Shown here in pieces: positions 1,886 through 64,000 of a stretch of DNA of 64,000 bases. The notes beneath the pieces were generated by a model. It made no database searches and had not been told where the DNA came from. It worked only from the letters and a program-made list of their open reading frames with translations. A program made the position numbers and the translations under genes. The stretch lies in the NCBI GenBank assembly GCA_964545975.1, contig CAZJHY010000002.1:18867-82866 (forward strand), given 5' to 3'. The DNA is from an uncultured Clostridia bacterium. Its GTDB lineage: Bacteria; Bacillota; DTU025; MWDF01. Each line of letters begins with the position of its first letter. The stretch's first letter is position 1.

Positions 1886-1990
1886 AACCGCGCTCCGAGC
1901 CGGACGACCTAAAGCGAGAAGCTATGGGCTTCCGGCCGACAGGGCCAGGGGGGAAACGCCCTGACCTCCCTTTTGGAAAGGATTGCGGCA
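1886..1990 (+). promoter_or_regulatory. Candidate molybdenum/tungsten cofactor (Moco/Tuco RNA motif) riboswitch aptamer
   Basis: CUCCGAGCC is at 1893-1901 and CCUCCC-N4-GGAAAGG is at 1965-1981. Closing helix: CCGC 1888-1891 with GCGG 1985-1988. Inner helices: GCCGG 1899-1903 with CCGGC 1932-1936, and CAGGG 1946-1950 with CCCUG 1959-1963. These were matched from memory to the published consensus and not searched. Confidence 0.6.
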
Positions 1991-2003
1991 GGCTTGAGTT
2001 TTC

Positions 2004-2045
2004 ATGCCGTGCCCTTCCTTCATGAGGATGGGCACGGCATTTTTT
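2004..2045 (+). terminator. Intrinsic terminator/attenuator (putative riboswitch expression platform)
   Basis: ATGCCGTGCCC (2004-2014) pairs with GGGCACGGCAT (2030-2040), followed by T5 (2041-2045). It ends only 11 nt before the ATG at 2057. Confidence 0.7.
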
Positions 2046-2056
2046 CGGAGGTACTG

Positions 2057-10514: not shown

Positions 10515-10667
10515 CGCCAATTCCTCCCAGTCATCAGAAGTGCAGGATTAGAAGCCTCCCGCACAGAACTTAGCTATAATCATGGTATCACAGTCCCTCA
10601 ATAATAAATTACGTACGAAAGCGCAAAAACCTTCCATGTCTGACGCAAAAAGACGGAGGCGAGCCCC

Positions 10668-14477: not shown

Positions 14478-17400
14478 GATCGGGGTTGGATCGCTTCTAT
14501 GCCCCTATCCTTGAAGACCGCGATGCAGGCATCAACGACATCAGGATCCAGCGCCGTTCCACGTAGCGCAAGGACCTCCTCGAGCGCTTCAGGAAGGGAA
14601 CTTGCCGGCCTGTACGGCCTGTGGGAAGTCATAGCGTCCACTATATCGGAGACGGCGATTATCTTGGCCTCCAGGAGGATCTCATCGCCTTTGAGCCCCC
14701 TGGGATAACCGTTTCCGTCGATTCTCTCGTGATGCTGGAACACGATTTCCGCAAGAGGCCACGGCAGCTTAATGTTGGAAAGGATATCCCTTCCCGACTT
14801 GCAATGCATCTGCACAAGCTTGTATTCAAGCGGTGTAAGGGTCCTTGGCCTGTTGAGGATGTCTGCAGGTATGTGAAGCTTTCCTATGTCATGGACCAGG
14901 GCGGATTTCGATATCGCCTCAACCCTGCCGTTCGAAAGGCCCATCTGCCTTGCGATGCTTTCAGCGATTTCCGCAACCCCCCTCTGATGTCCTGCTGTAT
15001 AGGGGTCTTTGAACTCGGTTACGGAGGAGAGCACGTCAAGGCTCCTGTTCCAAGCGAGCTTAAGCTCCTCGTGAGTTCTCAGCCTTTCGATTTCGGCAAG
15101 CTTCTTCTCCGTGTTGTCAATGATGACTCCCTGGATGCCTTCGATACTGCCGTCAGTCGCCCGAACTATCTTCGTATGGTCCTCAACCCAGATGAAATCC
15201 CCGTTTGCCATTCGCAGCCGGTATTCCTGGACGTATTCGGACATGCCTTTCTGCATGTACTCATCCGCTTCCCTGGTAAGATTCGCCAGATCCTCCTCGT
15301 GGACAAGTTCGGTGAACATTAGCTTGCGGCCCAGCAGGTCGTCAGGGCTGTACCCCCAGCGCGACACATTGGATGAAACATATTCTATAGACCAGTCAAC
15401 CTGATTTGACCATTTGATGAGCACTGCAGGGCTCTCCTTGATCACTTCGTTCGCCAAGCCGAGCATCTGCTGGCTTTGCGCCAGCTCGGACATGTCGTGG
15501 TAGATCGCATAGACATACCTCGAACCATCAGGGAGAGTCAACGGGATGCAGATCACACGGACCGGGATAATGCTTCCGTCCGCCCTCTGCCTCCTTGCCG
15601 TAAAATCGAGCTTGCTGCCCTCGATCGATTTGACGATATTTGATTCTATATCCTGTGCCGTCAGCTCAGTGCCTATCAGCCCTGAGAGAGTCTTCCCAAT
15701 TATTGAGCTCCTTGAGAATCCGAAAAGCTTCCTGAAGGCGATGTTTGCGCGGGTGATCCTTATGTCGCTGTCTATTACGACGACAGCGTCCGGGTTATTC
15801 TCGAACAGGCTGTCCAGATAAGCCCTCTCCCGTTCCAGCTTATCCTCCATCTGCCTGCGTTCCGAGATGTCATTGACGGTGAAGGAGAGCACCATCTTGT
15901 CCGCAAGGAAGAGTGTGCTTGCGAAAAGTTCGACATCCTTAACTAAGCCGCCTGATGCAAGCTGTCTTGTAAGCATTGAGCCGAACCCGGAATCCTTTGC
16001 TGATCCGGCCATGGCTTCGATGCTTCCGGATGATTCCGGCGGGGAGAAGCTGATAATGGTTCTGCCCTGCAAATCCTGCTCCGACAGACCATAGAACGAC
16101 TGCGATGCCTTGTTGGCCATCAGTACGGAGTACCTGTCGGCCTCGACGATAAGCATGGGGAGGTAGTTGTCCATGAACAGGGTCCTGAAGCGCTCTTCAG
16201 ACAGCGACATGCTTATGGCGGCCTCTTTCTGTTCTGTTATGTCCTGGCCCAGACAGATATAGCCCATGGTCTCGCCTTTGTCGATCACAGCTTTGGCAAT
16301 CCACCTCTGCCAGCGCTTCCTTTCATTCCTTATCAGCTCCAGCTCCTCAGAGTGGGTGGCATCCTTTCCATCAACTTCACTTCGCATCTTCCTGAAGAAC
16401 TGAACGTAATCCTCGCTGAAGACCTCATCCAGGGCTTTGCCGAGGTACTGCTCAGGGCTTCCGAGCTCGGCCATCTCCCTTAAAGAATCGTTGACATAGG
16501 TTATCCGGTAGCCAGAATCAAGGGAGAGGACGCACATAGGCATGCTCTCCACAAGGCTCCTGTACTTCAGCTCGCTTGCGGAGATCTCCCTTTGGAAGTT
16601 CCTTAGCGCAGTCTGGTCGGCAATCACCATGCCGAAAGTCTCTTCCGTCACGGGGAAGGCGGATATGTAAAGCCATCTTTGCGCTCCTGAAGAGAATCCG
16701 TCGATGACCACTGAACGCTTATCCAAGGCAGCCCGAAGTATCATGTCATACCAGCCTGCGTTAAGGAAGCTTGTGTTCTCCCGGAGCTTCCCGCCCAGCT
16801 GGAAGGGGCCTTTCTCGCCGGTGTTCCTCTCAAAAGCCGGATTCACGTCGATTAGCTCCATCTCCTTGTTTGAAGAACCGACTGGAAGCCTGTAGAGCAT
16901 GAACCCGGTTCCTGTGTGCAGGAAGAGGCTCCTGTACGTCCTTTCGCTCCTCTCCAGGTTCTGCTCTGCCTTGACCTCGCCCGAAACATCCCAGCCCACA
17001 AAGGTGAACCTGGTTGCCTGATTGTCGGGGTTTATGCTCGGATAGAGAGTGAAGCTCACATGTCTGCCCGCCAGCCTTTGCGTCTGCCTTGTTGACTCCC
17101 TCAGGGTCATCCTTGATTCAGAAACCATATCCTTCAGAAGATGCTCTGCCTCAGGCAGGATGTGGTAAATGGTCTGCCCGATGAGATCCATGCGGCTCTT
17201 TTTCAGCCATTTCTCCGATTCCTTGTTGGCAGCGATTATGAGCATGTCAGTATCAGTAATGAATGCGGGGTGGGCCAGAGCGGCAATCAGGGATGACCTG
17301 TCTGCAAGCAGAGGCATGATGCCCATCTCCAGATTGCCCCTTATGGCAGGCACTGTGAAACCTATGTAGAAGGACAGGTATGCAAACATATAGGAGAGTG

Positions 17401-18073
17401 ATTCCAGTATGTGGTAGTTGGGGCTGCTTGCCCTCAAACTGACGAGAGATACAACTCCACCAGTGATTAGCAGAACTCCGCCAATGGCGAAGGAAGCCAG
17501 ATAGGGTCTAAGGAACCTTTTACCGAGCAGGGCAGCAAGAAGGCCCGCTATCGAGAAAAGCTGCATGAAATTGAAGGATAACGCCAGGAAGGTAGGGTTT
17601 GACGCATCGTCGATAAGCGCAGGGAATGCTCCGAGATAGATCAGGAAATAGCAAAGAAGCATTACGAAGATAGTTACCGGCTGCATAAGCCAGATCCTGT
17701 CCTCCCTTGACCTAAGGACAAGATACTCTATGATGACGAAGCTTTGAGCTATCCTTACTACATATTGGATCTGCAAGCCGGCCTGCCCGGAGTAGTTCAG
17801 GAATGTAAGATATCCCAAATCGAACAGCAGGTGTATGTAAATGGACAGCCATGTGGCTATGGATGCGACCATGAGCGAGAAAGTATAGATGTCCTTGCTG
17901 TTGCGGTTCAGGTAATACAGGGTCACCATCGCCATCAAACCGATTGTCATGGAGCAGAAGCCGAAGAAGATATGCGTGGCTGCGTTGCCCTGCAAGGCTA
18001 TAAGAGCGATTGATGACAGGATCGCAAACGCTGATATACCCCATATGATAAACTCCCTGATCCTTCTGTACAT
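14474..18073 (-). CDS. Membrane-bound multi-PAS HD-GYP domain protein (probable c-di-GMP phosphodiesterase/sensor)
   Basis: The start was set to the ATG at 18073 (GGAGG 4 nt upstream). It has about 8 N-terminal TM segments and several PAS-like modules. The C-terminus reads HDIGKLHIP...HHERIDGNGYPRGL. Confidence 0.85.
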   Translation of the reverse strand: MYRRIREFIIWGISAFAILSSIALIALQGNAATHIFFGFCSMTIGLMAMVTLYYLNRNSKDIYTFSLMVASIATWLSIYIHLLFDLGYLTFLNYSGQAGLQIQYVVRIAQSFVIIEYLVLRSREDRIWLMQPVTIFVMLLCYFLIYLGAFPALIDDASNPTFLALSFNFMQLFSIAGLLAALLGKRFLRPYLASFAIGGVLLITGGVVSLVSLRASSPNYHILESLSYMFAYLSFYIGFTVPAIRGNLEMGIMPLLADRSSLIAALAHPAFITDTDMLIIAANKESEKWLKKSRMDLIGQTIYHILPEAEHLLKDMVSESRMTLRESTRQTQRLAGRHVSFTLYPSINPDNQATRFTFVGWDVSGEVKAEQNLERSERTYRSLFLHTGTGFMLYRLPVGSSNKEMELIDVNPAFERNTGEKGPFQLGGKLRENTSFLNAGWYDMILRAALDKRSVVIDGFSSGAQRWLYISAFPVTEETFGMVIADQTALRNFQREISASELKYRSLVESMPMCVLSLDSGYRITYVNDSLREMAELGSPEQYLGKALDEVFSEDYVQFFRKMRSEVDGKDATHSEELELIRNERKRWQRWIAKAVIDKGETMGYICLGQDITEQKEAAISMSLSEERFRTLFMDNYLPMLIVEADRYSVLMANKASQSFYGLSEQDLQGRTIISFSPPESSGSIEAMAGSAKDSGFGSMLTRQLASGGLVKDVELFASTLFLADKMVLSFTVNDISERRQMEDKLERERAYLDSLFENNPDAVVVIDSDIRITRANIAFRKLFGFSRSSIIGKTLSGLIGTELTAQDIESNIVKSIEGSKLDFTARRQRADGSIIPVRVICIPLTLPDGSRYVYAIYHDMSELAQSQQMLGLANEVIKESPAVLIKWSNQVDWSIEYVSSNVSRWGYSPDDLLGRKLMFTELVHEEDLANLTREADEYMQKGMSEYVQEYRLRMANGDFIWVEDHTKIVRATDGSIEGIQGVIIDNTEKKLAEIERLRTHEELKLAWNRSLDVLSSVTEFKDPYTAGHQRGVAEIAESIARQMGLSNGRVEAISKSALVHDIGKLHIPADILNRPRTLTPLEYKLVQMHCKSGRDILSNIKLPWPLAEIVFQHHERIDGNGYPRGLKGDEILLEAKIIAVSDIVDAMTSHRPYRPASSLPEALEEVLALRGTALDPDVVDACIAVFKDRGIEAIQPRS

Positions 18074-18104
18074 GCAGCCTCCGTTGCCCCGATGGCTTCT
18101 GCCA

Positions 18105-19919
18105 TTAGAAGGCGATGAACTCGAAGCCATCCTTGCCGAAAACTGCAAGGCAGGCATCCACTACTTCCCTGTCGAAGGTTATCGCCGATTTCGAGGCTAT
18201 CTCCTCCAACGCCGCCGCAATCCCGAGCGCCGGCCTGTATGGCCTGTTTGAGGACATGGCCTCCACGACGTCTGCTACTGCCAGTATCCTTGCCTCCTTC
18301 AGTATTTGGCTCCCTACAAGCCTGTTCGGGTAGCCGGACCCGTCCATCCTCTCATGATGCTGATAGGCGATTTCCGCAAGAGGCCAAGGAAATTCGATAT
18401 CCTTCAGGATACGCCAGCTCATCTCGCTGTGGGTCCTGAGAATCTCCAGCTCCACATCCTCAAGCCTGCCGGGTTTGGTAAGGATCTCGATGGGAATGTC
18501 AATCTTTCCAATATCGTGAACAATCCCTGCCAACTCCAGGCCCTTAAGGGCATCGGATGAAAGGCCCAGCCTGCTGCCTATAGCCTTTGCCAATTGCGCT
18601 ACCCTTCTTTGATGGCCCGCAGTGTAAAGGTCGCGCGCTTCAGATGCCGTGGCGAGCACGCTTATGGTCTGTATCCACGTCCGCTCAAGCTGCTTGACCT
18701 GGACCATAAGCCTCTCGTTAACGTCTCGGACCAGCCTTTCCGTGCTTTTGCGCTCTGTTATGTCATGGCTCATCCCGATTATGCCGGTAATCTTTCCGTC
18801 ATTGTCCTTGACAGGGGACAAGGTTATCTCAAAATCCCTTTCGCCGGTAAGAGTAGGCAGCCTTTCCTCTATGATGATGTTGCGGGTGCCTTCCAAGACC
18901 TTCAGGTCGAGCGCGCTGAGCCGGTCGGCGTTTCTTTTGGGCAGTATATCGTAATAGGTCATGCCAACCATGTCAGACGGAGGAAGGCCGCACCTGTCGG
19001 CCAGGGTCTTGCTGACCATCTGGAACCTTCCTTCAGTATCCTTATAGAAGATTCCGTCCGGGGCGACCTCAAATAGCGATCTGACGAAATCGAGGGCCTT
19101 CCTAAGCTCGTCTTCAAAAAGCTTCCTTTCGCTTATGTCCTGGTAAATCGCAAAAAACGCTACCTCCTGCTCCCTGTATGTTATGGGAAGCCCGATGAAG
19201 TGCACGTCAAGGAGCTTTCCATCCTTCCTCTTCCTTTTTCCCGTGGCGGAAAGCACATGCCCTGAGGAGCTCTCCCTGGTCAAGTCCATCGCTTCCGGAA
19301 GCTCCCCATGCGGGACGATCAGGTCATCGGCCTTCCGGCCAATCATTTCAGACCTCTCGAAACCGAACATGCTAGTACAGGCCTTGTTTATGTTTATAAT
19401 TGCCCCATCTCTTTCCGAGAGCATGATCGCCATCGGATAATTGTCGAAAAGCTGCTCGAGAAGCGCTACCTCAAGCCTGCCCTCCGAGCCCTGCCCCCGA
19501 GGATTGAAGGCGCTCATGTTCACCATGTATGATTCCGCGCCTATCTGCGTGCAGTAGGCCTCGAACCACATCCTCTTCTCCGGGCCGACCTTCAAAGGCA
19601 GGTCGAATGAGCGGATACCGGTGCTGAAAAGCTCATTGAGCTCAGCTTCTGCTACGTGGCTCCAGTTATCGGGGACAAAATCAGTCAGGGTGCGGCCGAT
19701 AAGGGCTTCAGCGGTCTCGCTGAAAAGCTCTGCAAAGGTTCTGCTCGCATGCAGGATGCGTCCGTCGGAGCCAAGCAGCACATTATGGAACATGCTTCCC
19801 GGGCCGATTGCAAGCGGCACGGCCTCATTATCATCGGCAGCAGCCCCTGCATCCTCGATTCCCATAATCGCAATTTTGAAGATGAGGCTTCGAACCCCAG
19901 TATATGGGCATGGCAACAA
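18105..19919 (-). CDS. PAS/HD-GYP domain protein; start uncertain and possibly the 3' part of a frameshifted longer gene
   Basis: HDIGKIDIP...HHERMDGSGYPNRL. Candidate starts are TTG 19919, ATG 19865 and ATG 19793, none with a good RBS. It overlaps the upstream PAS ORF by 89 nt in the +1 frame. Confidence 0.8.
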   Translation of the reverse strand: MLPCPYTGVRSLIFKIAIMGIEDAGAAADDNEAVPLAIGPGSMFHNVLLGSDGRILHASRTFAELFSETAEALIGRTLTDFVPDNWSHVAEAELNELFSTGIRSFDLPLKVGPEKRMWFEAYCTQIGAESYMVNMSAFNPRGQGSEGRLEVALLEQLFDNYPMAIMLSERDGAIININKACTSMFGFERSEMIGRKADDLIVPHGELPEAMDLTRESSSGHVLSATGKRKRKDGKLLDVHFIGLPITYREQEVAFFAIYQDISERKLFEDELRKALDFVRSLFEVAPDGIFYKDTEGRFQMVSKTLADRCGLPPSDMVGMTYYDILPKRNADRLSALDLKVLEGTRNIIIEERLPTLTGERDFEITLSPVKDNDGKITGIIGMSHDITERKSTERLVRDVNERLMVQVKQLERTWIQTISVLATASEARDLYTAGHQRRVAQLAKAIGSRLGLSSDALKGLELAGIVHDIGKIDIPIEILTKPGRLEDVELEILRTHSEMSWRILKDIEFPWPLAEIAYQHHERMDGSGYPNRLVGSQILKEARILAVADVVEAMSSNRPYRPALGIAAALEEIASKSAITFDREVVDACLAVFGKDGFEFIAF

Positions 19920-20577
19920 TGTCGCATAAAGACCTTCGCCCCCTAGCCGGGGAGAAGATCAGCTCGGCGTGGCGCATCTCGCCTCTCATCGCAGAGGAAA
20001 GCAGCTCGACTGCCTTCATCTTCTCGATTTCCAGCAGGTCATATATGCTCTTTCCCGTTAGATCGGCATTATATGCGGCAGCCATCCTTGCTGCCATGGA
20101 ATTGACATCGACTATCCTGCCCGTACTGATTTCGATAATCAGGATGGGGAGCTTGTTTTGAAGGAATTTACCTTCCTTGTAGGCATTAGTGGCGGGATGC
20201 CACCTGTTTCTTTGCCTGTGGTAGGTAATAAGCAAGAACTCTCCGTCGGAACAAAGGAAATGCAAGTCCCTTCTTCTTATCGATGGGCTGCCTAAGTGCT
20301 CAGTTCTGGGGGTTCCGCTTGCCTTCGAAACCTTGCCTGATGCAACGCCAGGAGGGCAGACAGGAAGTCCGTCAGGGCCGGACATCTGCTCGCACGACCT
20401 ACCCACCGCCTCTTCGGCGCCGATGCCCAGGTAATCGGCCATGATATCGCTAACCCAAACCACTTCGAGGGTCTGCTTCCTTAAAATGAGAGCAAGCTGA
20501 TCAAAGGCGCTGAAGATATCGATCAGCCCCTTCAGGTCAAGCTCCCTGAGGATGGCAGTGAACGCTTCTTGTTTCAT
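19831..20577 (-). CDS. Tandem-PAS protein (possible 5' part of the split sensor gene)
   Basis: The start was set to the ATG at 20577 (MKQEAF..), because the longer track ORF runs antisense through tRNA-Asp. It contains two PAS-like modules. The last PAS is truncated by the stop at 19831. Confidence 0.65.
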   Translation of the reverse strand: MKQEAFTAILRELDLKGLIDIFSAFDQLALILRKQTLEVVWVSDIMADYLGIGAEEAVGRSCEQMSGPDGLPVCPPGVASGKVSKASGTPRTEHLGSPSIRRRDLHFLCSDGEFLLITYHRQRNRWHPATNAYKEGKFLQNKLPILIIEISTGRIVDVNSMAARMAAAYNADLTGKSIYDLLEIEKMKAVELLSSAMRGEMRHAELIFSPARGRRSLCDIVAMPIYWGSKPHLQNCDYGNRGCRGCCR

Positions 20578-20699
20578 GGTCTGGTGCCCTTCCGTCGCGG
20601 TTGCGCATTGGATGTTATGAATATTAATACTATGCCTAAATGCTTTCTCCTTCCCTGTTCCCTGCTTGGCCTGATTATTGTATAATCTTATAGCAACGC

Positions 20700-20776
20700 G
20701 GAGGCGTGGTGTAGTGGTCAAACATGCCTGCCTGTCACGCAGGAGAACGCGGGTTCGACTCCCGTCGCTTCCGCCA
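20700..20776 (+). tRNA. tRNA-Asp: tRNA-Asp (anticodon GTC), CCA encoded
   Basis: Acceptor stem is GGAGGCG with CGCTTCC. Anticodon arm is CCTGC-CTGTCAC-GCAGG. T loop is TTCGACT. Discriminator G is followed by CCA. Confidence 0.93.
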
Positions 20777-20942
20777 TCTTTCTGGTTCATTGGGAGAACA
20801 GCCTGCCGGCAGCGGCAGGCTGTAGCCTCATCGTAAGCTGCATTCGAATGCGCCCACCTGTTATAACCTGTGAGGATGTGTTGGCACTTACCGGCGATAA
20901 GCGATCAGGAGCATCCGCCAAACAATGCCCGTAAGGGCTAAC

Positions 20943-25438: not shown

Positions 25439-26650
25439 CTATTCCCCCTCGGGGGCTGCCGACAATGTGAGGGTCAAATCCATCCTCTTGCCGTTTCTTA
25501 GTATCGTCAGCTTCACGTTTTCACCGATCTGCTTCTCCCTGACCCTTAAGGCCAGGTTGAACTTGCCCTCTGTGGATACCCCTTCAAACGCTTTTATTAT
25601 GTCGCCAGTCTTGATTCCTGCCCTTGAGGCCGGACTGCCGTCCGCGACATCCGCGACGTATATGCCGGACGTTTCCTTTATGCCGAGCTGCTCCGCCGCA
25701 TCTGCGTCAAGAGGGTAGTACCAGATGCCGATCCATGGCCTTGCGTATTTGCCGGTCTGTTTCAGCGACTGTATGGCATCCTTGACCGAGTCAATGGATA
25801 TTGCAAAGCTGATTCCCTGGGCATATGGGATTATCGCCGTATTGATGCCGACTATCTTGCCGTCCATGTTTATAAGAGGCCCGCCGCTGTTACCGGAGTT
25901 GATCGCAGCGTCGGTCTGTATTAGCTCGGCCTGAGAGATATCCTCCGCCCCTTCGACGTTCGCCAGGTTTCTTTCTATGGCGCTTACTATGCCGGCTGTG
26001 ACTGTATGCTCGAAGCCATGCGGATTGCCTATGGCAACAACCCATTCTCCGGGGCGCAGGTCCTTCGAGCTGCCAAGCACTGCATACGGAAGGCCGCTGG
26101 CCTCGACCTTAATCACAGCGATGTCATAGGCCGAGTAGCTTCCTATGAGCTTGGCATCGTAGGTCCGCCCATCCAGGAGGGTGACCTTTATCTCGTTCAT
26201 GCCGTCAATTACGTGATGGTTGGTAACTATGTAGCCGTCTGCGGATATGATGAAGCCTGATCCCGAGCCCTGCTGCTCGTACTGATAGTCGCCGAAGTTT
26301 CTGAATATGTCGCCGAAGATGCCGAAGTTCTCCTCGGGGGACTGCGATACGGTCTTCGTGACATCGATTCTAACCACCGCGGGGCTTACCGCTTCTGCGA
26401 TGTCCGCAATAGGCGGAAGCGCTGAAGCGTAGTCCGCACCTGTGGAAGGAAGCGCCGCGCCTCCTTCAAGAAGGCCGTCTGCATCCTCGTTTTGTTCCCC
26501 GGGGATGTCACCTGTTTCCTCCGTCTCATCCGATTGCCTGCTTAACGCGAGCTTGTCCCAGCCGTCGTATAGAACCATTCCGACTGCAAGAAGGCATGCG
26601 ATTATCACTATGAACGCTACAATCCTGTACACTCCGCCCTTTTCGGACAT
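25439..26650 (-). CDS. htrA: HtrA/DegP-family serine protease with one PDZ domain, membrane-anchored
   Basis: Motifs are GSGFIISADGYIVTNHHV, DIAVIKV and GNSGGPLINMDGKIVGINTA. The C-terminal PDZ block is GSPASRAGIKTGDII. Confidence 0.9.
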   Translation of the reverse strand: MSEKGGVYRIVAFIVIIACLLAVGMVLYDGWDKLALSRQSDETEETGDIPGEQNEDADGLLEGGAALPSTGADYASALPPIADIAEAVSPAVVRIDVTKTVSQSPEENFGIFGDIFRNFGDYQYEQQGSGSGFIISADGYIVTNHHVIDGMNEIKVTLLDGRTYDAKLIGSYSAYDIAVIKVEASGLPYAVLGSSKDLRPGEWVVAIGNPHGFEHTVTAGIVSAIERNLANVEGAEDISQAELIQTDAAINSGNSGGPLINMDGKIVGINTAIIPYAQGISFAISIDSVKDAIQSLKQTGKYARPWIGIWYYPLDADAAEQLGIKETSGIYVADVADGSPASRAGIKTGDIIKAFEGVSTEGKFNLALRVREKQIGENVKLTILRNGKRMDLTLTLSAAPEGE

Positions 26651-26672
26651 TCTATCACTCCCGTTTTCTTAC

Positions 26673-27314
26673 TCACCAATTGCTTCTGTATGAAGCCGGG
26701 CTGTATGAGCCCGATGTCTCGAAGGTCTGCACATACCGTGAAAGCCTGGGGTCGTCTATTGTCAATATCAGGTCGGACTGCGCCTGAGTAGAGCCCAGAG
26801 TAAGCGTGCCGTAGGATGCGCTGCTTACCACAGGCGAGCTCAGAGTGCCTATTCCGTTGGGGTTGAGGTCGGGGAGGACCACCTCCGCGGTATCGTCCAG
26901 CTGCTCCTCCAGGGGCTGCCTTGTCACAAGGCCCGCGATGGCTCCCGTGATGTTCACGTTGAATGCAAACTGCAGAATCGGGATGGCGATAAGCGTACCG
27001 ACAAGTGCCGCCGGAAGTAGCGCCCTTCCCAGGAATGAGAACAGCCCATATCGCCTTGCTCCGGCCGATGAGCCCTCCTCCTCCATCTCAAGCTGCAGCG
27101 CCCTGGTGCGGATGATCCCCATGTCGAAGGCTCCCTCGGGCTCCTCGGCGGGTTCCAGCTGCTCCAGCGCCTCTTTTATCCTCTCGAACTCATCGAGCAG
27201 CCTTGCGCAGCTGGCACACTCGATGACGTGCCTCTTTACCATCGCCGTCTCCTCGCTAGTCAGCTCCCTGTCGAGGAATGCGGAAAGCAGCCTCTCATAC
27301 TTGCTGCAAGTCAT
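26673..27314 (-). CDS. Anti-sigma factor (zf-HC2 type), single-pass membrane
   Basis: H-x3-C-x2-C (HVIECASC) lies after LSAFLDRELT, and there is a central TM segment. The gene abuts the sigma gene. Confidence 0.75.
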   Translation of the reverse strand: MTCSKYERLLSAFLDRELTSEETAMVKRHVIECASCARLLDEFERIKEALEQLEPAEEPEGAFDMGIIRTRALQLEMEEEGSSAGARRYGLFSFLGRALLPAALVGTLIAIPILQFAFNVNITGAIAGLVTRQPLEEQLDDTAEVVLPDLNPNGIGTLSSPVVSSASYGTLTLGSTQAQSDLILTIDDPRLSRYVQTFETSGSYSPASYRSNW

Positions 27315-27917
27315 CTAATTGATCCTCCTTTGGGCATCGAAGTGGGGCGCCAGCGCCTCCCTCAGGGCCTTCCTCGCCCTGTGGAGCCTGCTTCTGACCG
27401 TACCGATGGATGTGTTCATGATCCCTGCGATCTCCTCGTAGGAGAAGCCCTCGATGTCGCAAAGGATCACTACCATCCTGAACTCCGGCTGAAGCGCCTG
27501 AAGCGCCGCCGATACCCTGCTGTCCATCGCATTCTTGTCCAATACTATGAAGGGGTCCGCCCCGTGGTCGGGCAGCTCCCTTTGCATGCTGCCCTCCTCG
27601 GTCCTGACCGGGGCGTCGTATGACTCGGTCTCAGGGCGCCGCTTCCTCTTCCGTACCTCGTCTATGAAAAGGTTGGTCACTATCCTGTACAGCCACTTGT
27701 CGAAGGCCGTATCCTTCTTGTAGCTGTCGAAGGAGCGATATGCCCTGACAAAGGCGTCCTGGGCCAGGTCCTTGGCGTCCTCGGGGTTTCCCGTCATCCT
27801 GAGCGCAGCGTTATATACCGAGCCCTGATGCTTGCGCATGAGCTGCTCGAATTCCTCGGCCCGCGACATCCCGCCGGCGGCTGTGGCCAAAGTCCGCTCG
27901 GCAAGAATATTGAGCAT
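27315..27917 (-). CDS. ECF-type RNA polymerase sigma factor
   Basis: Region 2 is DLAQDAFVRAY and region 4 is FSYEEIAGIMNTSIGTVRSRLHRARKAL. Confidence 0.88.
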   Translation of the reverse strand: MLNILAERTLATAAGGMSRAEEFEQLMRKHQGSVYNAALRMTGNPEDAKDLAQDAFVRAYRSFDSYKKDTAFDKWLYRIVTNLFIDEVRKRKRRPETESYDAPVRTEEGSMQRELPDHGADPFIVLDKNAMDSRVSAALQALQPEFRMVVILCDIEGFSYEEIAGIMNTSIGTVRSRLHRARKALREALAPHFDAQRRIN

Positions 27918-59801: not shown

Positions 59802-62800
59802 CTAGAACAGGTCGAATTCGAGGTTGTAGCCGACGACGCTGACGCTGAACTTGCCAGTTGCAAGGTCTACTGAACCACTTACCGACTTGGGGTCGATTAC
59901 TGGCGCGTCCACTGTCCCTGAAGCGGTGAGCTTGAGTTCGTTCGTGTTCTGGATTCCTACCGAGACAGTCGCGGAAAGGGAGAACGTGGGGTCGGATATG
60001 AGCGGAACGGGCACGGTGCAGCTTGCGCTCGCAGACATGCTGCCTGTCAGCGAAATCGAGCTTGATGTAAGGGTGAAGTTGCACTTCACGTTGTTTGCGC
60101 CCAGCCCCAGATAGGCGATTCCCGTTATGCTGCCGGATTTTGCGATGCCGAAGTCCGCGTTTGCAAGAGTCACATTCGCGAGCTTAAGCCTTCCGGTTCC
60201 CCTCATGCCGTTTGCGGTGTCAAGCGTGAGCTTGCAGTTTTCGATAGTCACCTTCTTTCCTCCGGGCAGCGGGAAGTCCATGTTCTGCTCGTATTTGCCG
60301 GAAGCTCCGGTCGGAGTCACGGTGAAGTCGAAGTTCGGCTTCACTCCCAGGATGTCTATCTTGCCAGTACCTGTTATCGCCGAGTTGGCAAGCTTGAGGG
60401 AGGCCTCCGCGGCATCCCAGCTGCACACCGTTATCTGGCCAGTCGCCGTGGCTTCGAACTTAGTGGTGCTGGCAGCGACGGTGAACTGGGTCGACGTCAG
60501 CCCGGGGACGGCCAGCTTGAAGCTTCCTGTCATCGTGGAACCGGCAATCCTAAGGTCCGCATTGGTCACGTCATAGCCCATTACCGTGATGCTTCCGGCG
60601 TATGTGATGTCCAGCTTGGTAGGTGAGGCATCCACGAGATAGCTTGTCTTGGCGATTCCCGGCACAGTAATATCGAGGGTCCCCGTGACGGCAAGGCCGT
60701 TTAATGTCAGCGAGCCTGTCGCAAGCGTCCAGCCCATCAGGGTGGGCCCGGCGACGGTGGCGGAGCCGGAAATGCCGGTCGGCGTTATGGTTACGTTGAA
60801 CGACTGAGTGAACGACGGAGTAGTGCCAAGCTTGAGGCTTGCCGTCCCGACCAGGCTGTTGTTGCTGAAGCTCACGCTTATGGAAGTTGACGTCCAGCTC
60901 AGGAGCTTGCCTGAGGAGAGGCTTGCGCTTCCTGTGACCGTCGTGGGGGTGAATGTTAGGTTTGCCGCGGCCTTGCTTCCTCCGGGCAGGTCGACCTTGC
61001 CGGCGCCCGTGAACGATGTATCCGTCATCGTGAGCTTCATCGTCGTGAAGGTCCATCCCATAATCGTGAGATCCTGCGTGACAGTCCCGGAGAAGGACGT
61101 AGGTGTGATGTTGAATGCCAGGCTCACGCTTGGTCCAGAAGGCAGCGACACTGAAGCGCTGCCGGAGATCTTCGTCGTGCTGAGCGAAAGAGATGCATTC
61201 GTGAGGTTGTACCCGAGAAGCGTGAGGCTTTGGGCTGCTGTCGCGGTGAAGCTCGTAGGTGTTCCGCTGAGGCCGAAGGCGATGCTCGAGTTTCCGGGTA
61301 TGCCGGCCTTGGCGCTTCCGGAGAAGCTGCCATCGGTCACCGTGACTGCCGCCTCGGCCAGCGTCCATGAGCCGTACCCGACCGAGCCTGCCCAGCTTGC
61401 GCTCAGCTTCAGGTCCGATGTTATGGTTATACCGTACTGCATCTCGGTCGCGGTGCCGGGAAGCTTAATGTATCCTGTACCCGTGATCTTTGTGTTGCCG
61501 ATCGCAAGCTGAGTCCTTGCCAGCGACCAGCCTGCTATCTTGAAATCCTTAGCATAGCTTCCGCTGATTGTGCCGTCGCTGCTTACGCTGATGTCCCATC
61601 GTGTGGTCGTCCCGCCCGGCATGACGAGGTCGCCTGAGCCTGTGATGCCGGAGTTATCCAACCGGAAGTCTGCGTTGGCAAAGGCCCAGGGGCCGATTCT
61701 CACCGACTGCTTGGCACTTCCATAGAACTGCCCTGTAGAAAGGTCGATGCCCACTGCATACTGCTGGCTCACCCCGAGCAGGCTTGCCGTGGCTGTGCCC
61801 TGGCCCGACAGCTCGAAGTCGGGGCCTAACCTCATGTCAATCGAGGCCGACGCCGGCATGAAGGGAAGGCCGGGGTTTGCAGACCAGTGCAGCCCATCAT
61901 CCTTAAGGCTCCCCGAAGCTATGCTGAAGGTCCTTTCGGCTATTCTGACTGTCCCCTTCCAGCTGCCGGACAGCACCTTACCGGCTTTGTCGGTTTTAAA
62001 GCTCGCATCGACCGTGCCGCCGATAGGAAGGTGAAGCTTCCCTGAGCCGCTCAATGACCCGTCCTGCGCCACGGAACCCTTGTAGGATGTGACAAGGAAG
62101 CCTGCTACGATGACCTCAACAGGTGAGGTTGGCTTGCTGTCCACCTCCCGGAACGTAACGTTGAACAACTTGTGCTTGGTATCAACCCCCGCTGAGGCCT
62201 CCACCTCTACGAATTCTCCGGGCTCGACCTTGCCCTCGCCTTCAAACTCGAACAGAAGGCCCACGGAAGCCTCGCCGTCCTTGCCTGCGCTGTCGTACTT
62301 GCTTCCTGCCAAAACGCAGGGCAGCTCTAGGTCGGTCTTGATGAATGCCTTGGCTCCGATTCCGATTTCCGCTGCAGCTTCGGCGCCCAAGGAGACGTCG
62401 AATCCACCGCCGAGCTTAAGCGTGAATGTGGAATCCTTCTTGAATTCGGTGACTGCCTTGGATGTCAGGCTTGCAAATGAACCGGCGGCCTTCTTCATGA
62501 GCGGCGTGAAGTTGCCGCTTCGCACGCACTCGGGAAGCGATGCCAGCAGTTCGATTACGGAAGAGCCTCCCGCCTTTATGGTCTCCGCCATTGAGGAGAG
62601 GGGGAACTTGGCCTCAAGTGTCATAAGGGGTATGCCCGGACTCAGCTCCAGTTCGAGCAGCGTGCCAGCCGGGACTGCTGAAAGCAGCCTGTTCCAGTCA
62701 GGTTCCTGTGCCGCCCGCCTTCCGGAGATGCCCTTAGGGGAGATCCGGTCGATTATATAGACTATCGCATTGATGCATTCATTGACGAAATCGGTCCTGA

Positions 62801-64000
62801 AAATTGACTGAATGCTTCGACCCGCCGGAATCTCAGCCTCTATCCCGAACATGCGAAGCGAAGTGGCGGAATCGGACTTCCCCTCGCCAAGCGCGTCCAA
62901 TGCAACTTCAAGCTTCGCTTTGGAGTTCGATGAAGCAGCCAAGGCCTTGGACAGGCCGCTTCTTGCAAGGTTTGCCAGGATGCGCTCTAGCTCCGCGGCA
63001 TCCCTTCCGATTGCCTCAGGATCGTTGAAGGACCTATATGTCGCATACCTCTGAATATATGGAAGGGAGTCCATGCCTGCCTGAAGGACATCTCCTATGA
63101 CGGCTACGGTCAGCTTCGCCGCGTCTCCTACCGGCAGCATGAAGCCTATCCCTGCCTTAAGGCTTCCTGCGGTTGCGGAAGTGTCAGCCGCCCCGACGCC
63201 GGCCTTTGCCGTAAGCTCGACCTGGATGCCGACTTCACCAAGCGTGTCTCCTGAGGCGGTTATGCTTGAGAGCACCTGCCTGAAGCCGGCATAAAGCATA
63301 TTTGCGGCCGTCCTTGCGTCAACCTCCATGCCGGGTTTAATGGGCGCCGACCTCTGCATCGCCTCCATGGCCTGCCTGGCAAACGCCGTGGCCTTATGAG
63401 GCTCGCACTCGTAGCAGAGCTTGCCTTCCAGCTCTCCTTCAAGCATGAGCTCGGCATCGAAGGTGGCCTCAATGCCGAGTCCTATCTCACATTCGACTTT
63501 GGTGGGGACAAAGTCGAAGGCGGACAGGTCGATGCTGAACAGCTGACCGCCGATTTCCATCGATGAAGAGGCCCTGATAAGCGGGAGGCCCCCAACCAGG
63601 GGCATCCTTGCCTGGAAGGACGAGTACAAGCCTCCGGTGATGTCGATGAATGCGTAGGGAAGGCCGGGGGTGGGATTTGAAAGCCTGCCTCCGGCGTAAT
63701 CGCAAAGAGGGTCGGAGTTCGAGATGCCTACGATGAGCCTGCTTCCGGATGCTCTCATTATACCCATCACCGCAAGAGATCCTCCCCGCTTGAAAGCCTC
63801 AAACCTTCCTCCTGGGAAGCTCCAGCCTATCTCCGCATCGGGAATGGATGCCAATGCCGACCTGATCTTGTCATAGGCGGCCTTGATCTGCGGGCCTGTT
63901 ATGTAGATCATCGCCTGTGCGAGCTTGCTGAGCTCGCCGGCGACCGCCTTCATCTCTTCATCCAGTTTTACTTCCAGAGGGCTTTTGAAGCGGTTGATGA
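59802..64000 (-). CDS. Giant Ser/Thr/Gly-rich repeat protein of unknown function (at least 1399 aa); 5' end probably outside window
   Basis: The frame stays open upstream of the first Met (63953) to the window edge. No signal peptide is visible at the first Met. The C-terminal half is repetitive beta-strand-like sequence ending ..NLEFDLF. Confidence 0.75.
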   Translation of the reverse strand, partial: INRFKSPLEVKLDEEMKAVAGELSKLAQAMIYITGPQIKAAYDKIRSALASIPDAEIGWSFPGGRFEAFKRGGSLAVMGIMRASGSRLIVGISNSDPLCDYAGGRLSNPTPGLPYAFIDITGGLYSSFQARMPLVGGLPLIRASSSMEIGGQLFSIDLSAFDFVPTKVECEIGLGIEATFDAELMLEGELEGKLCYECEPHKATAFARQAMEAMQRSAPIKPGMEVDARTAANMLYAGFRQVLSSITASGDTLGEVGIQVELTAKAGVGAADTSATAGSLKAGIGFMLPVGDAAKLTVAVIGDVLQAGMDSLPYIQRYATYRSFNDPEAIGRDAAELERILANLARSGLSKALAASSNSKAKLEVALDALGEGKSDSATSLRMFGIEAEIPAGRSIQSIFRTDFVNECINAIVYIIDRISPKGISGRRAAQEPDWNRLLSAVPAGTLLELELSPGIPLMTLEAKFPLSSMAETIKAGGSSVIELLASLPECVRSGNFTPLMKKAAGSFASLTSKAVTEFKKDSTFTLKLGGGFDVSLGAEAAAEIGIGAKAFIKTDLELPCVLAGSKYDSAGKDGEASVGLLFEFEGEGKVEPGEFVEVEASAGVDTKHKLFNVTFREVDSKPTSPVEVIVAGFLVTSYKGSVAQDGSLSGSGKLHLPIGGTVDASFKTDKAGKVLSGSWKGTVRIAERTFSIASGSLKDDGLHWSANPGLPFMPASASIDMRLGPDFELSGQGTATASLLGVSQQYAVGIDLSTGQFYGSAKQSVRIGPWAFANADFRLDNSGITGSGDLVMPGGTTTRWDISVSSDGTISGSYAKDFKIAGWSLARTQLAIGNTKITGTGYIKLPGTATEMQYGITITSDLKLSASWAGSVGYGSWTLAEAAVTVTDGSFSGSAKAGIPGNSSIAFGLSGTPTSFTATAAQSLTLLGYNLTNASLSLSTTKISGSASVSLPSGPSVSLAFNITPTSFSGTVTQDLTIMGWTFTTMKLTMTDTSFTGAGKVDLPGGSKAAANLTFTPTTVTGSASLSSGKLLSWTSTSISVSFSNNSLVGTASLKLGTTPSFTQSFNVTITPTGISGSATVAGPTLMGWTLATGSLTLNGLAVTGTLDITVPGIAKTSYLVDASPTKLDITYAGSITVMGYDVTNADLRIAGSTMTGSFKLAVPGLTSTQFTVAASTTKFEATATGQITVCSWDAAEASLKLANSAITGTGKIDILGVKPNFDFTVTPTGASGKYEQNMDFPLPGGKKVTIENCKLTLDTANGMRGTGRLKLANVTLANADFGIAKSGSITGIAYLGLGANNVKCNFTLTSSSISLTGSMSASASCTVPVPLISDPTFSLSATVSVGIQNTNELKLTASGTVDAPVIDPKSVSGSVDLATGKFSVSVVGYNLEFDLF
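60306..61727 (-). repeat. Protein-level tandem array: nine ~51-55-aa degenerate repeats inside the giant gene
   Basis: By manual alignment, the units start FYGSAKQ, ISGSYAK, LSASWAG, FTATAAQ, FSGTVTQ, VTGSASL, ISGSATV, LDITYAG and FEATATG. The consensus is x-SG-S-x5-T-x2-GW-T-L-x2-A-x-L-x-L-x5-TG-S/T-G-x3-LPG-x7-F-x-I/V-TPT. There are weaker copies on both sides. Confidence 0.7.

What the first reader, a model, noticed from the sequence alone, without database searches (positions are those of the whole stretch)
59802..64000. Giant (at least 1399 aa) repeat protein of unknown family, with nine or more ~52-aa beta-strand-like repeats and a C-terminal Phe
The reading frame is open to the window edge, so the N-terminus is missing. 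The visible N-terminal ~740 aa are Ala/Gly/Ser-rich with no motif I recognise. The C-terminal ~640 aa hold nine clearly alignable 51-55-aa units (60306-61727) plus weaker copies on both sides. These have an alternating hydrophobic pattern and invariant landmarks (SG-S.., GW-T-L, L-x-L, TG-S/T-G, LPG, F-x-I/V-TPT). The repeats are diverged at DNA level, so the array is old rather than a recent expansion. The protein ends ..GYNLEFDLF; a terminal aromatic residue is the hallmark of the outer-membrane beta-signal in diderms. Candidate interpretations are a beta-helical adhesin or S-layer-type surface protein, or an AsmA/TamB-like envelope-spanning beta-taco. I cannot place it in a described family from sequence alone, and the partner genes upstream are outside the window.
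Basis: seen in the sequence. Interest (0 to 1): 0.65.

Follow-up and report, generated by a model that had tools for sequence, protein, structure and literature searches.

The report
Giant exported beta-repeat protein, unannotated family
This is a real, expressed and strongly conserved gene for a 1465-residue exported protein from an uncultured Clostridia-like anaerobe; it belongs to a rare protein family with no entry in any domain or structure database, it most likely sits on or outside the cell surface, and its fold and function are still unknown.

Summary
The minus-strand frame 59802-64000 is open to the window edge. An overlapping public contig identical over 647 bases supplies the missing 67 codons, giving a 1465-aa protein with an N-terminal signal peptide. 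The nine 51-55-aa repeats are real: leave-one-out HMM scores are 20-50 bits against 5-12 for shuffles. A family-wide model finds 14 units, so the whole C-terminal half is one repeat array. Pfam, NCBIfam, PHROGs and PDB give no match.

An exhaustive HMMER scan of 1.84 billion representative proteins finds only 82 relatives, in several phyla. They reveal three modules:
- a ~620-aa alpha/beta "head";
- a beta-meander array of 52-53-aa units;
- a ~165-aa C-terminal cap ending GxxΦxΦ-[D/K]-Φ-[F/W]-COOH.

In relatives the head sits at the N-terminus of proteins carrying SLH, HYR, Ig-like or cadherin-like domains, or C-terminal sorting-type tails. I therefore read this as an exported surface or envelope protein.

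The terminal aromatic residue is conserved, but the motif is out of register with the outer-membrane beta-signal. AsmA/TamB membership fails on sequence. The fold is unresolved: AlphaFold pTM is 0.43-0.44. dN/dS is 0.05-0.07, and metatranscriptome contigs cover parts of the gene. It is a new family of a familiar kind, of moderate interest.

The parts
59802..64000 (-). In-window part of the gene, residues 68-1465 plus the stop codon. The full gene is 1465 codons; its first 67 codons lie beyond the window edge.
   Evidence: Contig L016 overlaps with 647 of 647 identical bases and supplies the ATG and a GGAGG ribosome-binding site. dN/dS is 0.05-0.07 against orthologues.
62130..63992 (-). Head module, residues 70-690. 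It is alpha/beta: an N-terminal helical stretch, then about five long amphipathic beta-hairpins, each followed by helices. It is acidic (pI 5.0).
   Evidence: It is conserved in most of the 82 family members as an N-terminal module. AlphaFold secondary structure comes from a low-confidence model, pLDDT 49. No PDB match by fold or by sequence.
60300..62129 (-). Beta-meander repeat array, residues 691-1300, made of 52-53-aa units of four strands each. The first unit carries the conserved VAGFxV...GSGxLxLPxGG motif.
   Evidence: Family-wide unit HMM: 14 matches in this protein between residues 695 and 1374 (the last two in the cap), spacing mode 51-53 aa. AlphaFold gives an all-beta meander, with pLDDT 75-90 over the first 300 residues of the model.
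60300..61721 (-).
   Evidence: Leave-one-out HMM scores are 20-50 bits, against a shuffle maximum of 5-12 bits. Pairwise identity is 25% at protein level and 42% at nucleotide level. No DNA tandem repeat is detected.
59805..60299 (-). C-terminal cap, residues 1301-1465. It is a divergent continuation of the array and is conserved across distant relatives.
   Evidence: It aligns with the C-termini of P0009, P0013, P0043, P0050, P0054 and P0064, among others. AlphaFold confidence is below 40 for the last 76 residues.
59805..59870 (-). Terminal motif ..VDLATGKFSVSVVGYNLEFDLF-COOH. The family pattern is [VI][DN]LxxG[EK]ΦxΦxΦxGxxΦxΦ[DK]Φ[FW].
   Evidence: Alignment of 15 cap-bearing C-termini: 12 end in F or W.

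Best explanation
The gene encodes an exported, non-enzymatic cell-surface or envelope-associated protein of a previously unannotated family.

**Proposed mechanism**
1. A Sec-type signal peptide takes the protein across the cytoplasmic membrane. In this sub-lineage the sequence ILAC also fits the lipobox rule, so lipidation is possible.
2. The ~620-aa alpha/beta head is the working end, most likely a binding or contact module.
3. The head is carried on an all-beta array of 52-53-aa four-strand units. The array acts as a stiff stalk or platform whose length is set by the number of units.
4. The array is closed by a conserved first unit (VAGF..) and by a ~165-aa cap. The cap's last strand ends exactly at the free C-terminus with an aromatic residue. 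I take this cap to seal the edge of the sheet and perhaps to dock the protein on the envelope.

**Shown:** export signal, module boundaries, repeat array, conserved cap, purifying selection, presence in metatranscriptome assemblies, absence from all family libraries, and the surface-type domains of relatives.

**Inferred:** surface location of this particular protein, the binding role of the head, the stalk or platform role of the array, and any docking role of the cap.
For: - **Export.** The full protein and all relatives with complete N-termini that were inspected start with signal peptides.
- **A real but rare family.** The exhaustive HMMER scan finds 82 relatives at E <= 1e-3 among 1.84 billion representatives.
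- **Surface-type relatives.** Of 26 long relatives, 10 carry HYR, 5 Big_13, 3 cadherin-like and 3 SLH domains. Single members carry fn3, Laminin_G_3, CBM_X2 and ricin-type lectin domains. Several others end in a Gly/Ser-rich stretch, a hydrophobic helix and a basic tail, like a C-terminal sorting signal.
- **Head at the far end.** In these proteins the head is always N-terminal, so it lies at the end opposite a C-terminal anchor. An example is P0046, with the head at residues 83-709 and a C-terminal anchor region.
- **Autonomous beta module.** The module with its cap also occurs without the head. It follows a Cu_amine_oxidN1 domain in P0054, follows a Pro/Thr linker in P0050, and stands alone after a signal peptide in P0059.
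- **Variable length.** The unit count runs from a few to 38 per protein. That fits an open-ended, elongated structure better than a closed one.
- **No conserved partner gene.** Loci L001, L002, L005, L008, L011, L013, L014 and L015 share no neighbour. In L015 the neighbours are other giant beta-helix proteins.
- **Selection.** dN/dS is 0.05-0.07 in both halves.
- **Expression.** Metatranscriptome contigs cover parts of the gene.
Against: - This protein has no recognised anchor. Pfam and NCBIfam find no SLH, LPXTG, PEP-CTERM-type or T9SS C-terminal domain at E <= 1. Surface retention is therefore inferred only from relatives.
- No ligand, binding motif or catalytic residues can be named. The nearly invariant head positions are mostly Gly and Pro, plus N175, D339, T340 and E607.
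- The fold is unresolved. AlphaFold pTM is 0.44 for the beta half and 0.43 for the head, and the head's mean pLDDT is 49. Foldseek TM-scores are at most 0.18 when normalised to the query. "Stalk" is therefore one reading among several.
- A protein made only of the beta module (P0059) argues that the module does more than act as a spacer.
Confidence: 0.5

Rival explanations
1. Outer-membrane-anchored protein. The C-terminal beta module, or its cap, is recognised by BAM through the terminal aromatic strand and is inserted into or docked on an outer membrane. The head then acts as a passenger, as in an autotransporter.
For: - The terminal F or W is conserved in distant relatives and always sits at the very C-terminus.
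- Variable N-terminal domains precede a conserved C-terminal beta module.
- In the window's own contig and in close relatives, a nearby upstream gene encodes a 168-aa signal-peptide protein. By my reading of the alignment it has eight amphipathic strands. Its invariant ending ..G-x-[R/T]-F fits the canonical beta-signal register. The lineage may therefore be diderm.
- One relative comes from Armatimonadota and one from a gammaproteobacterial isolate.
Against: - The motif is out of register with ζxGxx[Ω/Φ]x[Ω/Φ] (PMC10945584). The third residue from the end is D or K, and the Gly sits 9 rather than 6 residues from the end.
- In many relatives the same beta units are followed by coiled coils and Ig-like domains, so there they are soluble and extracellular.
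- Module length varies from about 325 aa to more than 2000 aa, which does not suit a single barrel.
- Foldseek on the beta half returns no outer-membrane barrel among its significant hits.
- Public records label the host MAGs Clostridia, Firmicutes or Bacillota.
- No Pfam or NCBIfam outer-membrane protein model hits the 168-aa neighbour.
Confidence: 0.15
2. The 52-aa four-strand units are beta-propeller blades. The module folds into one or more propellers closed by "velcro" pairing of the conserved first and last strands, and it serves as a binding platform rather than a rod.
For: - Unit size and the four-strand meander match a propeller blade.
- A conserved first unit, and a last strand that ends exactly at the C-terminus, would suit ring closure.
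- Many low-ranking Foldseek hits are propellers: DDB1, GH43 enzymes, sortilin and neuraminidase-like proteins.
- Within a strand, hydrophobic positions switch from one face to the other (alignment).
Against: - TM-scores to every propeller hit are 0.05-0.13, so the model is not a closed propeller.
- No blade-type Pfam family hits even at E <= 1.
- Predicted strands are 8-12 residues long, which from my general knowledge is long for propeller blades.
- Unit counts of 30-38 in some relatives would need many tandem propellers.
Confidence: 0.12
3. S-layer or sheath-type self-assembling surface protein.
For: The protein is exported, large, acidic overall (pI 5.3) and rich in Ala, Gly, Ser and Thr. 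It is lineage-restricted and has no known domains. Three relatives carry SLH domains.
Against: - Metatranscriptome contig depth over the gene is 0-3.3, against 4.6-7.6 for the adjacent ThiF and aminotransferase genes. S-layer genes are usually among the most highly expressed; that is general knowledge. The tool itself warns that contig depth is a poor measure of expression.
- This protein has no SLH or other wall-binding domain.
- It contains 11 Cys residues.
Confidence: 0.08
4. AsmA/TamB-like or ApoB-like amphipathic beta-groove or belt that binds or conducts lipids or other hydrophobic material.
For: - The only Foldseek hits with a high probability are to the ApoB100 beta-belt: probability 0.85, with about 790-806 aligned columns.
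- The beta part is unusually hydrophobic and poor in charge: GRAVY +0.19 and about 11% charged residues.
- Relative P0009 gives a weak YhdP hit at E 0.0099.
- E. coli TamB also ends in an aromatic residue..LLYQFEF.
Against: - TM-score to ApoB100 is only 0.17 with an rmsd of 23-24 Å.
- No AsmA-clan Pfam hit is significant in any member scanned.
- hhalign against TamB gives probability 0.95%.
- AsmA-like proteins are defined by an N-terminal membrane helix and a Chorein-N start (PMC10345924). Here a signal peptide with a cleavage-type c-region is followed by a 620-aa alpha/beta head.
- Relatives combine the units with extracellular domains.
Confidence: 0.07
5. Rhs/YD-type beta-cocoon or another toxin-delivery shell. 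Alternatively, a pore-former that uses the head's amphipathic hairpins.
For: - The best Foldseek E-values are to teneurin YD shells (1.6e-4 and 2.6e-4) and to an Rhs protein (5.2e-3).
- The head contains about five long amphipathic hairpins flanked by helices.
Against: - TM-scores are 0.07-0.08 with an rmsd of 45-55 Å.
- There is no RHS_repeat hit, and nothing follows the array that could be a cargo.
- Variable unit number and head-less members do not fit a closed shell.
- One face of the head hairpins is very acidic, which is unusual for a membrane-inserting hairpin.
Confidence: 0.05

Closest known systems
Fibrillar or giant surface adhesins with a distal binding head on a repeat stalk (for example RTX adhesins and SLH-anchored clostridial surface proteins)
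   Same: It is exported and very large, with a unique N-terminal module followed by a variable-number repeat array. Relatives place the same head at the N-terminal end of SLH-, HYR-, Ig- or cadherin-containing proteins. [quoted passage not shown]
   Different: Neither the head nor the repeat unit matches any described adhesin domain. This protein has no RTX or T1SS signal, no SLH domain and no sortase motif. The repeat is a four-strand meander unit rather than an Ig-like or beta-helix domain.
Outer-membrane protein beta-signal and type V (autotransporter) architecture
   Same: There is a signal peptide, a variable N-terminal part and a conserved C-terminal all-beta module. The chain ends in F or W in most members.
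   Different: The motif register differs from ζxGxx[Ω/Φ]x[Ω/Φ] (PMC10945584). No autotransporter or outer-membrane protein Pfam model hits. The module length is highly variable. The same units occur internally in extracellular proteins.
AsmA-like / TamB bridge proteins (repeating beta-groove superfamily)
   Same: It is a long beta-meander with a C-terminal aromatic residue. E. coli TamB ends ..YQFEF.
   Different: There is no significant sequence relationship. There is no Chorein-N start and no N-terminal membrane helix directly followed by a groove, both defining features in PMC10345924. An alpha/beta head comes first. No partner outer-membrane protein gene is conserved.
Teneurin / Rhs YD-repeat shells and the ApoB100 beta-belt
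   Same: These are the top Foldseek hits to the predicted beta half. All are very long antiparallel meanders.
   Different: TM-scores are 0.07-0.18. There are no YD motifs, no plug, protease or cargo, and no lipoprotein N-terminal domain. The resemblance is at the level of "long antiparallel sheet" only.

Membership tests
BAM substrate / outer-membrane beta-signal | The last residue is aromatic or hydrophobic | tested here: met
   The protein ends in F. Of 15 cap-bearing family C-termini, 12 end in F or W.
BAM substrate / outer-membrane beta-signal | The eight-residue consensus ζxGxx[Ω/Φ]x[Ω/Φ], with a hydrophobic or aromatic residue third from the end and Gly sixth from the end (PMC10945584) | tested here: not met
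   The last eight residues are YNLEFDLF. The third from the end is D (D or K in the family), and the Gly is ninth from the end. The core GxxΦxΦ is present but is followed by three extra residues.
BAM substrate / outer-membrane beta-signal | The host has an outer membrane and a BAM machinery | tested here: inconclusive
   Public records label the MAGs Clostridia, Firmicutes or Bacillota. No outer-membrane biogenesis gene was found among about 45 window ORFs scanned. The upstream 168-aa protein looks like a small outer-membrane barrel and ends ..GxRF, but it has no Pfam, NCBIfam or PDB support.
AsmA-like / TamB | Detectable Chorein-N, AsmA, TamB (DUF490) or YhdP sequence domains | tested here: not met
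   This protein gives no Pfam hit at E <= 1. Searches give no significant AsmA-clan hit in the relatives scanned; the only one listed is YhdP in P0009 at E 0.0099, far below cut-off. hhalign of the beta module against E. coli TamB gives probability 0.95%.
AsmA-like / TamB | An N-terminal inner-membrane helix followed directly by a periplasmic beta-groove (PMC10345924) | tested here: not met
   The N-terminal hydrophobic segment is followed by a small-residue cleavage-type region (ACASS, or SSASSS in P0004). A 620-aa alpha/beta head then follows. Cleavage itself was not tested.
AsmA-like / TamB | A continuous hydrophobic groove | not testable with these tools
Rhs / YD-repeat shell | YD repeats (Pfam RHS_repeat), and a C-terminal protease motif with an encapsulated cargo | tested here: not met
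   No Pfam hit. The chain ends with the array itself. Foldseek E-values are 1.6e-4 to 5e-3, but TM-scores are 0.07-0.08.
Beta-propeller repeat families | A match to a known blade family, or a closed-ring fold | tested here: inconclusive
   No blade-family Pfam hit. TM-scores to propellers are at most 0.13. The model is of low global confidence, so a ring cannot be excluded.
SLH-anchored or other sorted surface proteins | A recognised anchor or sorting signal (SLH, LPXTG, PEP-CTERM-type, T9SS C-terminal domain) | tested here: not met
   None is found in this protein by Pfam or NCBIfam. SLH domains are present in 3 relatives only. The N-terminus fits the PROSITE-style lipobox rule (ILAC) as I recall it, but that Cys is absent in the 58-61% relatives P0004 and P0006.

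The most novel reading that the evidence does not exclude
The capped beta-meander module is a new autonomous structural element of bacterial envelopes. It runs from the first unit VAGF.. through n units of 52-53 aa to a cap ending GxxΦxΦ-[D/K]-Φ-[F/W]-COOH. Under this reading it is either a new kind of C-terminal anchor that docks exported proteins on the envelope through its free aromatic C-terminal strand, or an amphipathic beta-belt that coats lipid or hydrophobic surfaces, as ApoB does. The head would then be an equally new binding or membrane-active domain.
Probability: 0.12. Interest if true: 0.75.

Novelty: new variant of a known kind. Interest (0 to 1): 0.45.

Why it matters
If the reading is right, this adds a new multi-phylum family to the catalogue of giant bacterial surface proteins. 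The family has three modules, and none of them is in Pfam, NCBIfam or the PDB.

The capped beta module is the most useful piece. It is autonomous, varies in length, is found behind different N-terminal domains, and ends in a conserved free aromatic residue. That makes a concrete and cheap target for structure determination: P0059, P0054 and P0064 carry it within about 325-370 residues. It also gives a testable question about how exported proteins are retained on poorly known envelopes. The case also shows that a terminal Phe alone is not evidence of an outer-membrane beta-signal.

The stakes are modest. The family is very rare, with 82 clusters among 1.84 billion representative proteins. It is known only from uncultured organisms, apart from one Aliiglaciecola isolate, and no phenotype is attached to it.

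Tried and rejected
- **Family libraries.** Pfam, NCBIfam and PHROGs on the protein gave nothing significant. Pfam on head-less and repeat-only relatives gave no model covering the repeat.
- **Word-indexed homologue searches.** These found only 5-6 close relatives. The exhaustive scan was needed to see the family.
- **AlphaFold.** Both halves were run with 5-6-sequence alignments. The beta half gave pLDDT 67 and pTM 0.44; the head gave pLDDT 49 and pTM 0.43.
- **Foldseek.** Searches against the PDB (both halves) and against viral models (beta half) gave no match with a query-normalised TM-score above 0.18.
- **Profile searches of PDB sequences.** With the family and with the beta module, the only hits were coiled-coil noise from relatives and an insignificant transglycosylase stretch.
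- **hhalign against E. coli TamB.** Negative.
- **Conserved gene neighbours.** Nine loci were inspected and none share a partner. The 168-aa and 269-aa upstream genes are restricted to the close relatives and are absent in the 60% relative L005.
- **Is the 168-aa neighbour an outer-membrane protein?** Pfam, NCBIfam, PDB and homologue names gave no support beyond the sequence pattern.
- **Contact inference.** Mean-field direct-coupling analysis on 203 consecutive unit pairs was meant to decide between a continuous sheet and separate blades. With an effective sample of 173, gap artefacts and same-column couplings dominated. It was uninformative apart from a hint of the first hairpin.
- **Regulatory scans.** Promoter and terminator scans at the two gene ends found no promoter match and nothing usable.
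- **Phage or plasmid origin.** Considered and dropped. The window is ordinary chromosome, with TilS, FtsH, the glycine cleavage system, MurD-type ligase and FolD.

Full report

Yes. Translating the minus strand from 63998 to 59802 gives 1398 residues without a stop, ending ..VVGYNLEFDLF and then a stop codon. The window sequence equals residues 68-1465 of a 1465-aa database protein, P0001. A 4.2-kb Logan contig, L016, overlaps the window end with 647 of 647 identical bases. It shows the true start: an ATG with GGAGG 8 nt upstream and the N-terminus MRRSFLKVFCLALIACILILACASSDVSG... That is a typical signal peptide.

The sequence ILAC also satisfies the lipobox rule as I recall it. However, that Cys is absent in the 58-61% relatives P0004 and P0006, so lipidation, if any, is a sub-lineage feature.

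**2. The repeats**

I cut nine units at residues 827-1300, window 60300-61721. In a leave-one-out test, each unit scored 20.3-49.5 bits against an HMM of the other eight. The best of 200 shuffles scored 5.4-12.5 bits.

Iterating a unit model over the whole family gave 448 units in 61 proteins, with a modal spacing of 51-53 aa. This protein gives 14 matches between residues 695 and 1374, a few of them partial or overlapping. The family consensus for one period is TGTGSVTLAGFTLANASLTLTNGSLSGSGTLNLPGGGTVSFTGTVDSSGNFSG. So the whole C-terminal half is one array, and the conserved stretch VAGFLV..GSGKLHLPIGG at residue ~697 is simply its first unit.

The units are old. Tandem Repeats Finder sees nothing with this period. 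Mean pairwise identity is 25% at protein level and 42% at nucleotide level. The 61% orthologue P0004 keeps nearly the same length, 1468 against 1465 aa.

**3. It is a real gene**

Against orthologues at 88-91% protein identity (L001, L006), dN/dS is 0.05-0.07. The value is the same in the head and in the beta half.

Contigs of an anaerobic-digester metatranscriptome (X24) lie on 59998-60327, 60564-60975 and 63131-63502. A contig from a second RNA run (X25) lies on 62602-62836. Depth is low: 0-3.3 over the gene, against 4.6-7.6 over the adjacent ThiF and aminotransferase genes. The tool warns that contig depth is a poor measure of expression and that DNA carry-over is possible.

DNA runs that hold the sequence come from sediment, sludge, biosolids, biofilm and aquatic metagenomes.

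**4. What family?**

- Pfam and NCBIfam give no hit at E <= 1. PHROGs gives one insignificant hit at E 0.43.
- The word-indexed search of 5.8 billion clusters found only four close relatives, one N-terminal fragment, and one 24%-identical 1768-aa protein.
- The GTDB-species genome scan found four loci. All are in MAGs labelled uncultured Clostridia, Firmicutes or Bacillota.
- An exhaustive HMMER scan with a profile of residues 68-1267 found 82 proteins at E <= 1e-3 among 1.84 billion representatives. Of these, 65 fall below 1e-10.

So the family is real, very rare and spread across phyla. Named members come from:
- Armatimonadota (P0009);
- Symbiobacteriaceae (P0012);
- a Bacilli MAG (P0037);
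- the isolate Aliiglaciecola sp. CAU 1673 (P0014, WP_275794003.1);
- a MAG labelled Thaumarchaeota (the P0043 cluster), a label I would not trust without checking the binning.

**5. Module architecture across the family**

- **Module A, the head**, is residues ~70-690. It is present in most members and always near the N-terminus after a signal peptide.
- **Module B/C** is the unit array.
- **Module D** is a ~165-aa cap that ends the chain.

P0001-P0004, P0009 and P0013 share the full A-B/C-D plan at about 1450 aa. P0043 has it with an inserted region.

Many others have A plus a few units (four to seven in most cases), then a coiled coil and HYR, Big_13 or OmpL47-type barrel repeats. Some of these end in a Gly/Ser-rich stretch, a hydrophobic helix and a basic tail, which is typical of C-terminal sorting signals.

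Some have A followed directly by cadherin-like, HYR, GLUG or Flg_new domains. One search finds SLH domains in three relatives, and the 3731-aa P0046 is of this type.

Others lack A altogether:
- P0059 is a signal peptide plus the B/C-D module, 368 aa in all.
- P0054 has a Cu_amine_oxidN1 domain before the module.
- P0050 has an unrelated N-terminal part and a Pro/Thr linker before it.
- P0080 and P0084 are almost entirely units (31 and 38).

The cap's end is conserved far beyond the close relatives:
- ..SVDLATGKFSVSVVGYNLEFDLF (P0001)
- ..DVNLASGEFSVSVFGKSITFDLF (P0013)
- ..SVDLASGKVTVSAFGLSLTFDLF (P0050)
- ..EVDLETGEIEFEILGEGISIDLF (P0043)
- ..SINLVTGEITVEILGVKVNFKLF (P0054)
- ..DVNLDTGEVEFEIPGPNPKFDFF (P0009)
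- three further members end ..F[KDH][LF]W.

Twelve of the 15 sequences listed end in F or W.

**6. Structure**

*Beta half.* AlphaFold2 on residues 690-1465 with a five-sequence alignment gave mean pLDDT 67 and pTM 0.44. The prediction is an uninterrupted antiparallel meander of about 60 strands, mostly 8-12 residues long and joined by tight turns. Confidence is 75-90 over the first 300 residues and below 40 over the last 76.

Foldseek against the PDB gave only generic "long antiparallel sheet" matches:
- teneurin YD shells, E 1.6e-4 and 2.6e-4, TM 0.07-0.08;
- ApoB100 beta-belt, E about 1e-3, probability 0.85, TM 0.17;
- an Rhs shell;
- many beta-propellers, at TM 0.13 or less.

Viral models gave nothing useful.

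*Head.* AlphaFold on residues 27-760 with six sequences gave pLDDT 49. Its secondary structure is an N-terminal helical stretch, then about five long amphipathic hairpins, each followed by helices. Foldseek gave no significant match.

Profile searches of PDB sequences were negative. The three-dimensional arrangement therefore remains open: rod, superhelix, groove, propellers or barrel. A direct-coupling analysis on unit pairs did not resolve it.

**7. Surroundings and host**

The window is ordinary chromosome. It carries TilS, FtsH, the glycine-cleavage system with lipoate ligase, a MurD-type ligase, FolD, glycerate kinase, an ECF sigma / anti-sigma / HtrA cluster, PAS-HD signalling proteins and two subtilases.

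The gene is convergent with a class-V aminotransferase gene. The 73-bp gap between them holds no recognisable terminator. Upstream, outside the window, lie a divergent 269-aa lipoprotein gene and a 168-aa gene.

The 168-aa protein has a signal peptide. By my reading of the alignment it has eight amphipathic strands. Its invariant ending ..G-x-[R/T]-F fits the canonical beta-signal register. It looks like a small outer-membrane barrel, which would make this lineage diderm. No library or structure search supports that, however.

These two neighbours are absent in the 60% relative L005, where MsrAB lies upstream. Loci of more distant relatives share no neighbour. The protein therefore appears to work without a dedicated partner.

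**8. Interpretation**

Export is shown. A surface or extracellular location is inferred from the company the modules keep in relatives. Because the head is always at the N-terminal end, opposite any C-terminal anchor, I take it to be the contact or binding end. Because unit number varies from a few to 38, I take the array to be an open-ended scaffold.

The cap is the most intriguing part. It is conserved, it always ends the chain, and it ends in an aromatic residue. The published consensus ζxGxx[Ω/Φ]x[Ω/Φ] (PMC10945584) is not matched in register. The family has GxxΦxΦ followed by [D/K]-Φ-[F/W], so the antepenultimate residue is charged. By contrast, E. coli TamB ends ..LLYQFEF and the 168-aa neighbour ends ..VGLRF. 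Both of those fit the canonical pattern.

The same units occur internally in clearly extracellular proteins. Cap-bearing members include proteins with a Cu_amine_oxidN1 domain or a Pro/Thr linker, an architecture that from general knowledge is usual in Gram-positive exoproteins. I therefore favour a structural edge-capping role, with envelope docking as a possibility. I give the BAM-dependent reading 0.15.

The AsmA/TamB reading fails the sequence tests. It also fails the architectural definition in PMC10345924.

**9. Novelty and score**

This is a validated new protein family with three modules absent from Pfam, NCBIfam, PHROGs and the PDB. It belongs to a familiar general kind: giant exported repeat proteins of the cell surface. 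The function is not established and the fold is unresolved. The conserved, autonomous, C-terminally aromatic beta module is a concrete and inexpensive target for structural work. I score interest at 0.45.

Noticed in passing
L016:1845-2351 (+), L006:5570-6076 (+); just beyond window position 64000: A 168-aa signal-peptide protein (P0087/P0088 family). By my reading of the alignment it has eight amphipathic strands, and its invariant C-terminus is ..G-x-[R/T]-F. It looks like a small outer-membrane beta-barrel, which would imply that this "Clostridia" lineage is diderm. It has no Pfam, NCBIfam or PDB match and only 14 homologues.
   Followed up: partly
L016:2422-3231 (-), L006:6147-6956 (-): A 269-aa predicted lipoprotein (lipobox LSGC) with no known family, transcribed divergently from the giant gene. 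It is conserved only in the close relatives and is absent in L005.
   Followed up: partly
L002:10001-14401 / L007:10001-14380: In the 59% relative, on a 509-kb contig, the orthologous gene is called as three ORFs of 691, 309 and 420 aa. This is either a pseudogene or frameshift errors in the assembly.
   Followed up: no
window 14474-20790 (-): Three consecutive genes for PAS-domain proteins of 1227, 604 and 319 aa. The first two carry HD_5 (HD-GYP-type) output domains. The ORFs overlap at their ends, which may indicate a split or duplicated sensor.
   Followed up: no
window 10668-12548 (+) and 12600-14477 (+): Tandem paralogous genes for about 625-aa subtilases (Peptidase_S8), each with an N-terminal CarboxypepD_reg domain.
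   Followed up: no
window 25439-27917 (-): A cluster of an ECF sigma factor, a zf-HC2 anti-sigma factor and an HtrA-like protease (Trypsin_2 + PDZ), typical of an envelope-stress module.
   Followed up: no
window 1973-3007 (+) and 9303-10520 (-): Two further signal-peptide proteins of 344 and 405 aa with no Pfam family.
   Followed up: no
L015:1-7834: In the locus of the distant relative P0104, the giant gene sits beside two other giant beta-helix (NosD/Beta_helix) proteins and a CarboxypepD_reg/Big_13 protein. This is a cluster of large secreted proteins. The cluster's NCBI member is labelled Thaumarchaeota, which may be a binning error.
   Followed up: no
P0001 residues 18-23 (outside the window; L016:3423-3440): The signal peptide of this sub-lineage contains ILAC, which fits the lipobox rule as I recall it. 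The mature protein could therefore be N-terminally lipidated. The Cys is not conserved in the 58-61% relatives.
   Followed up: partly
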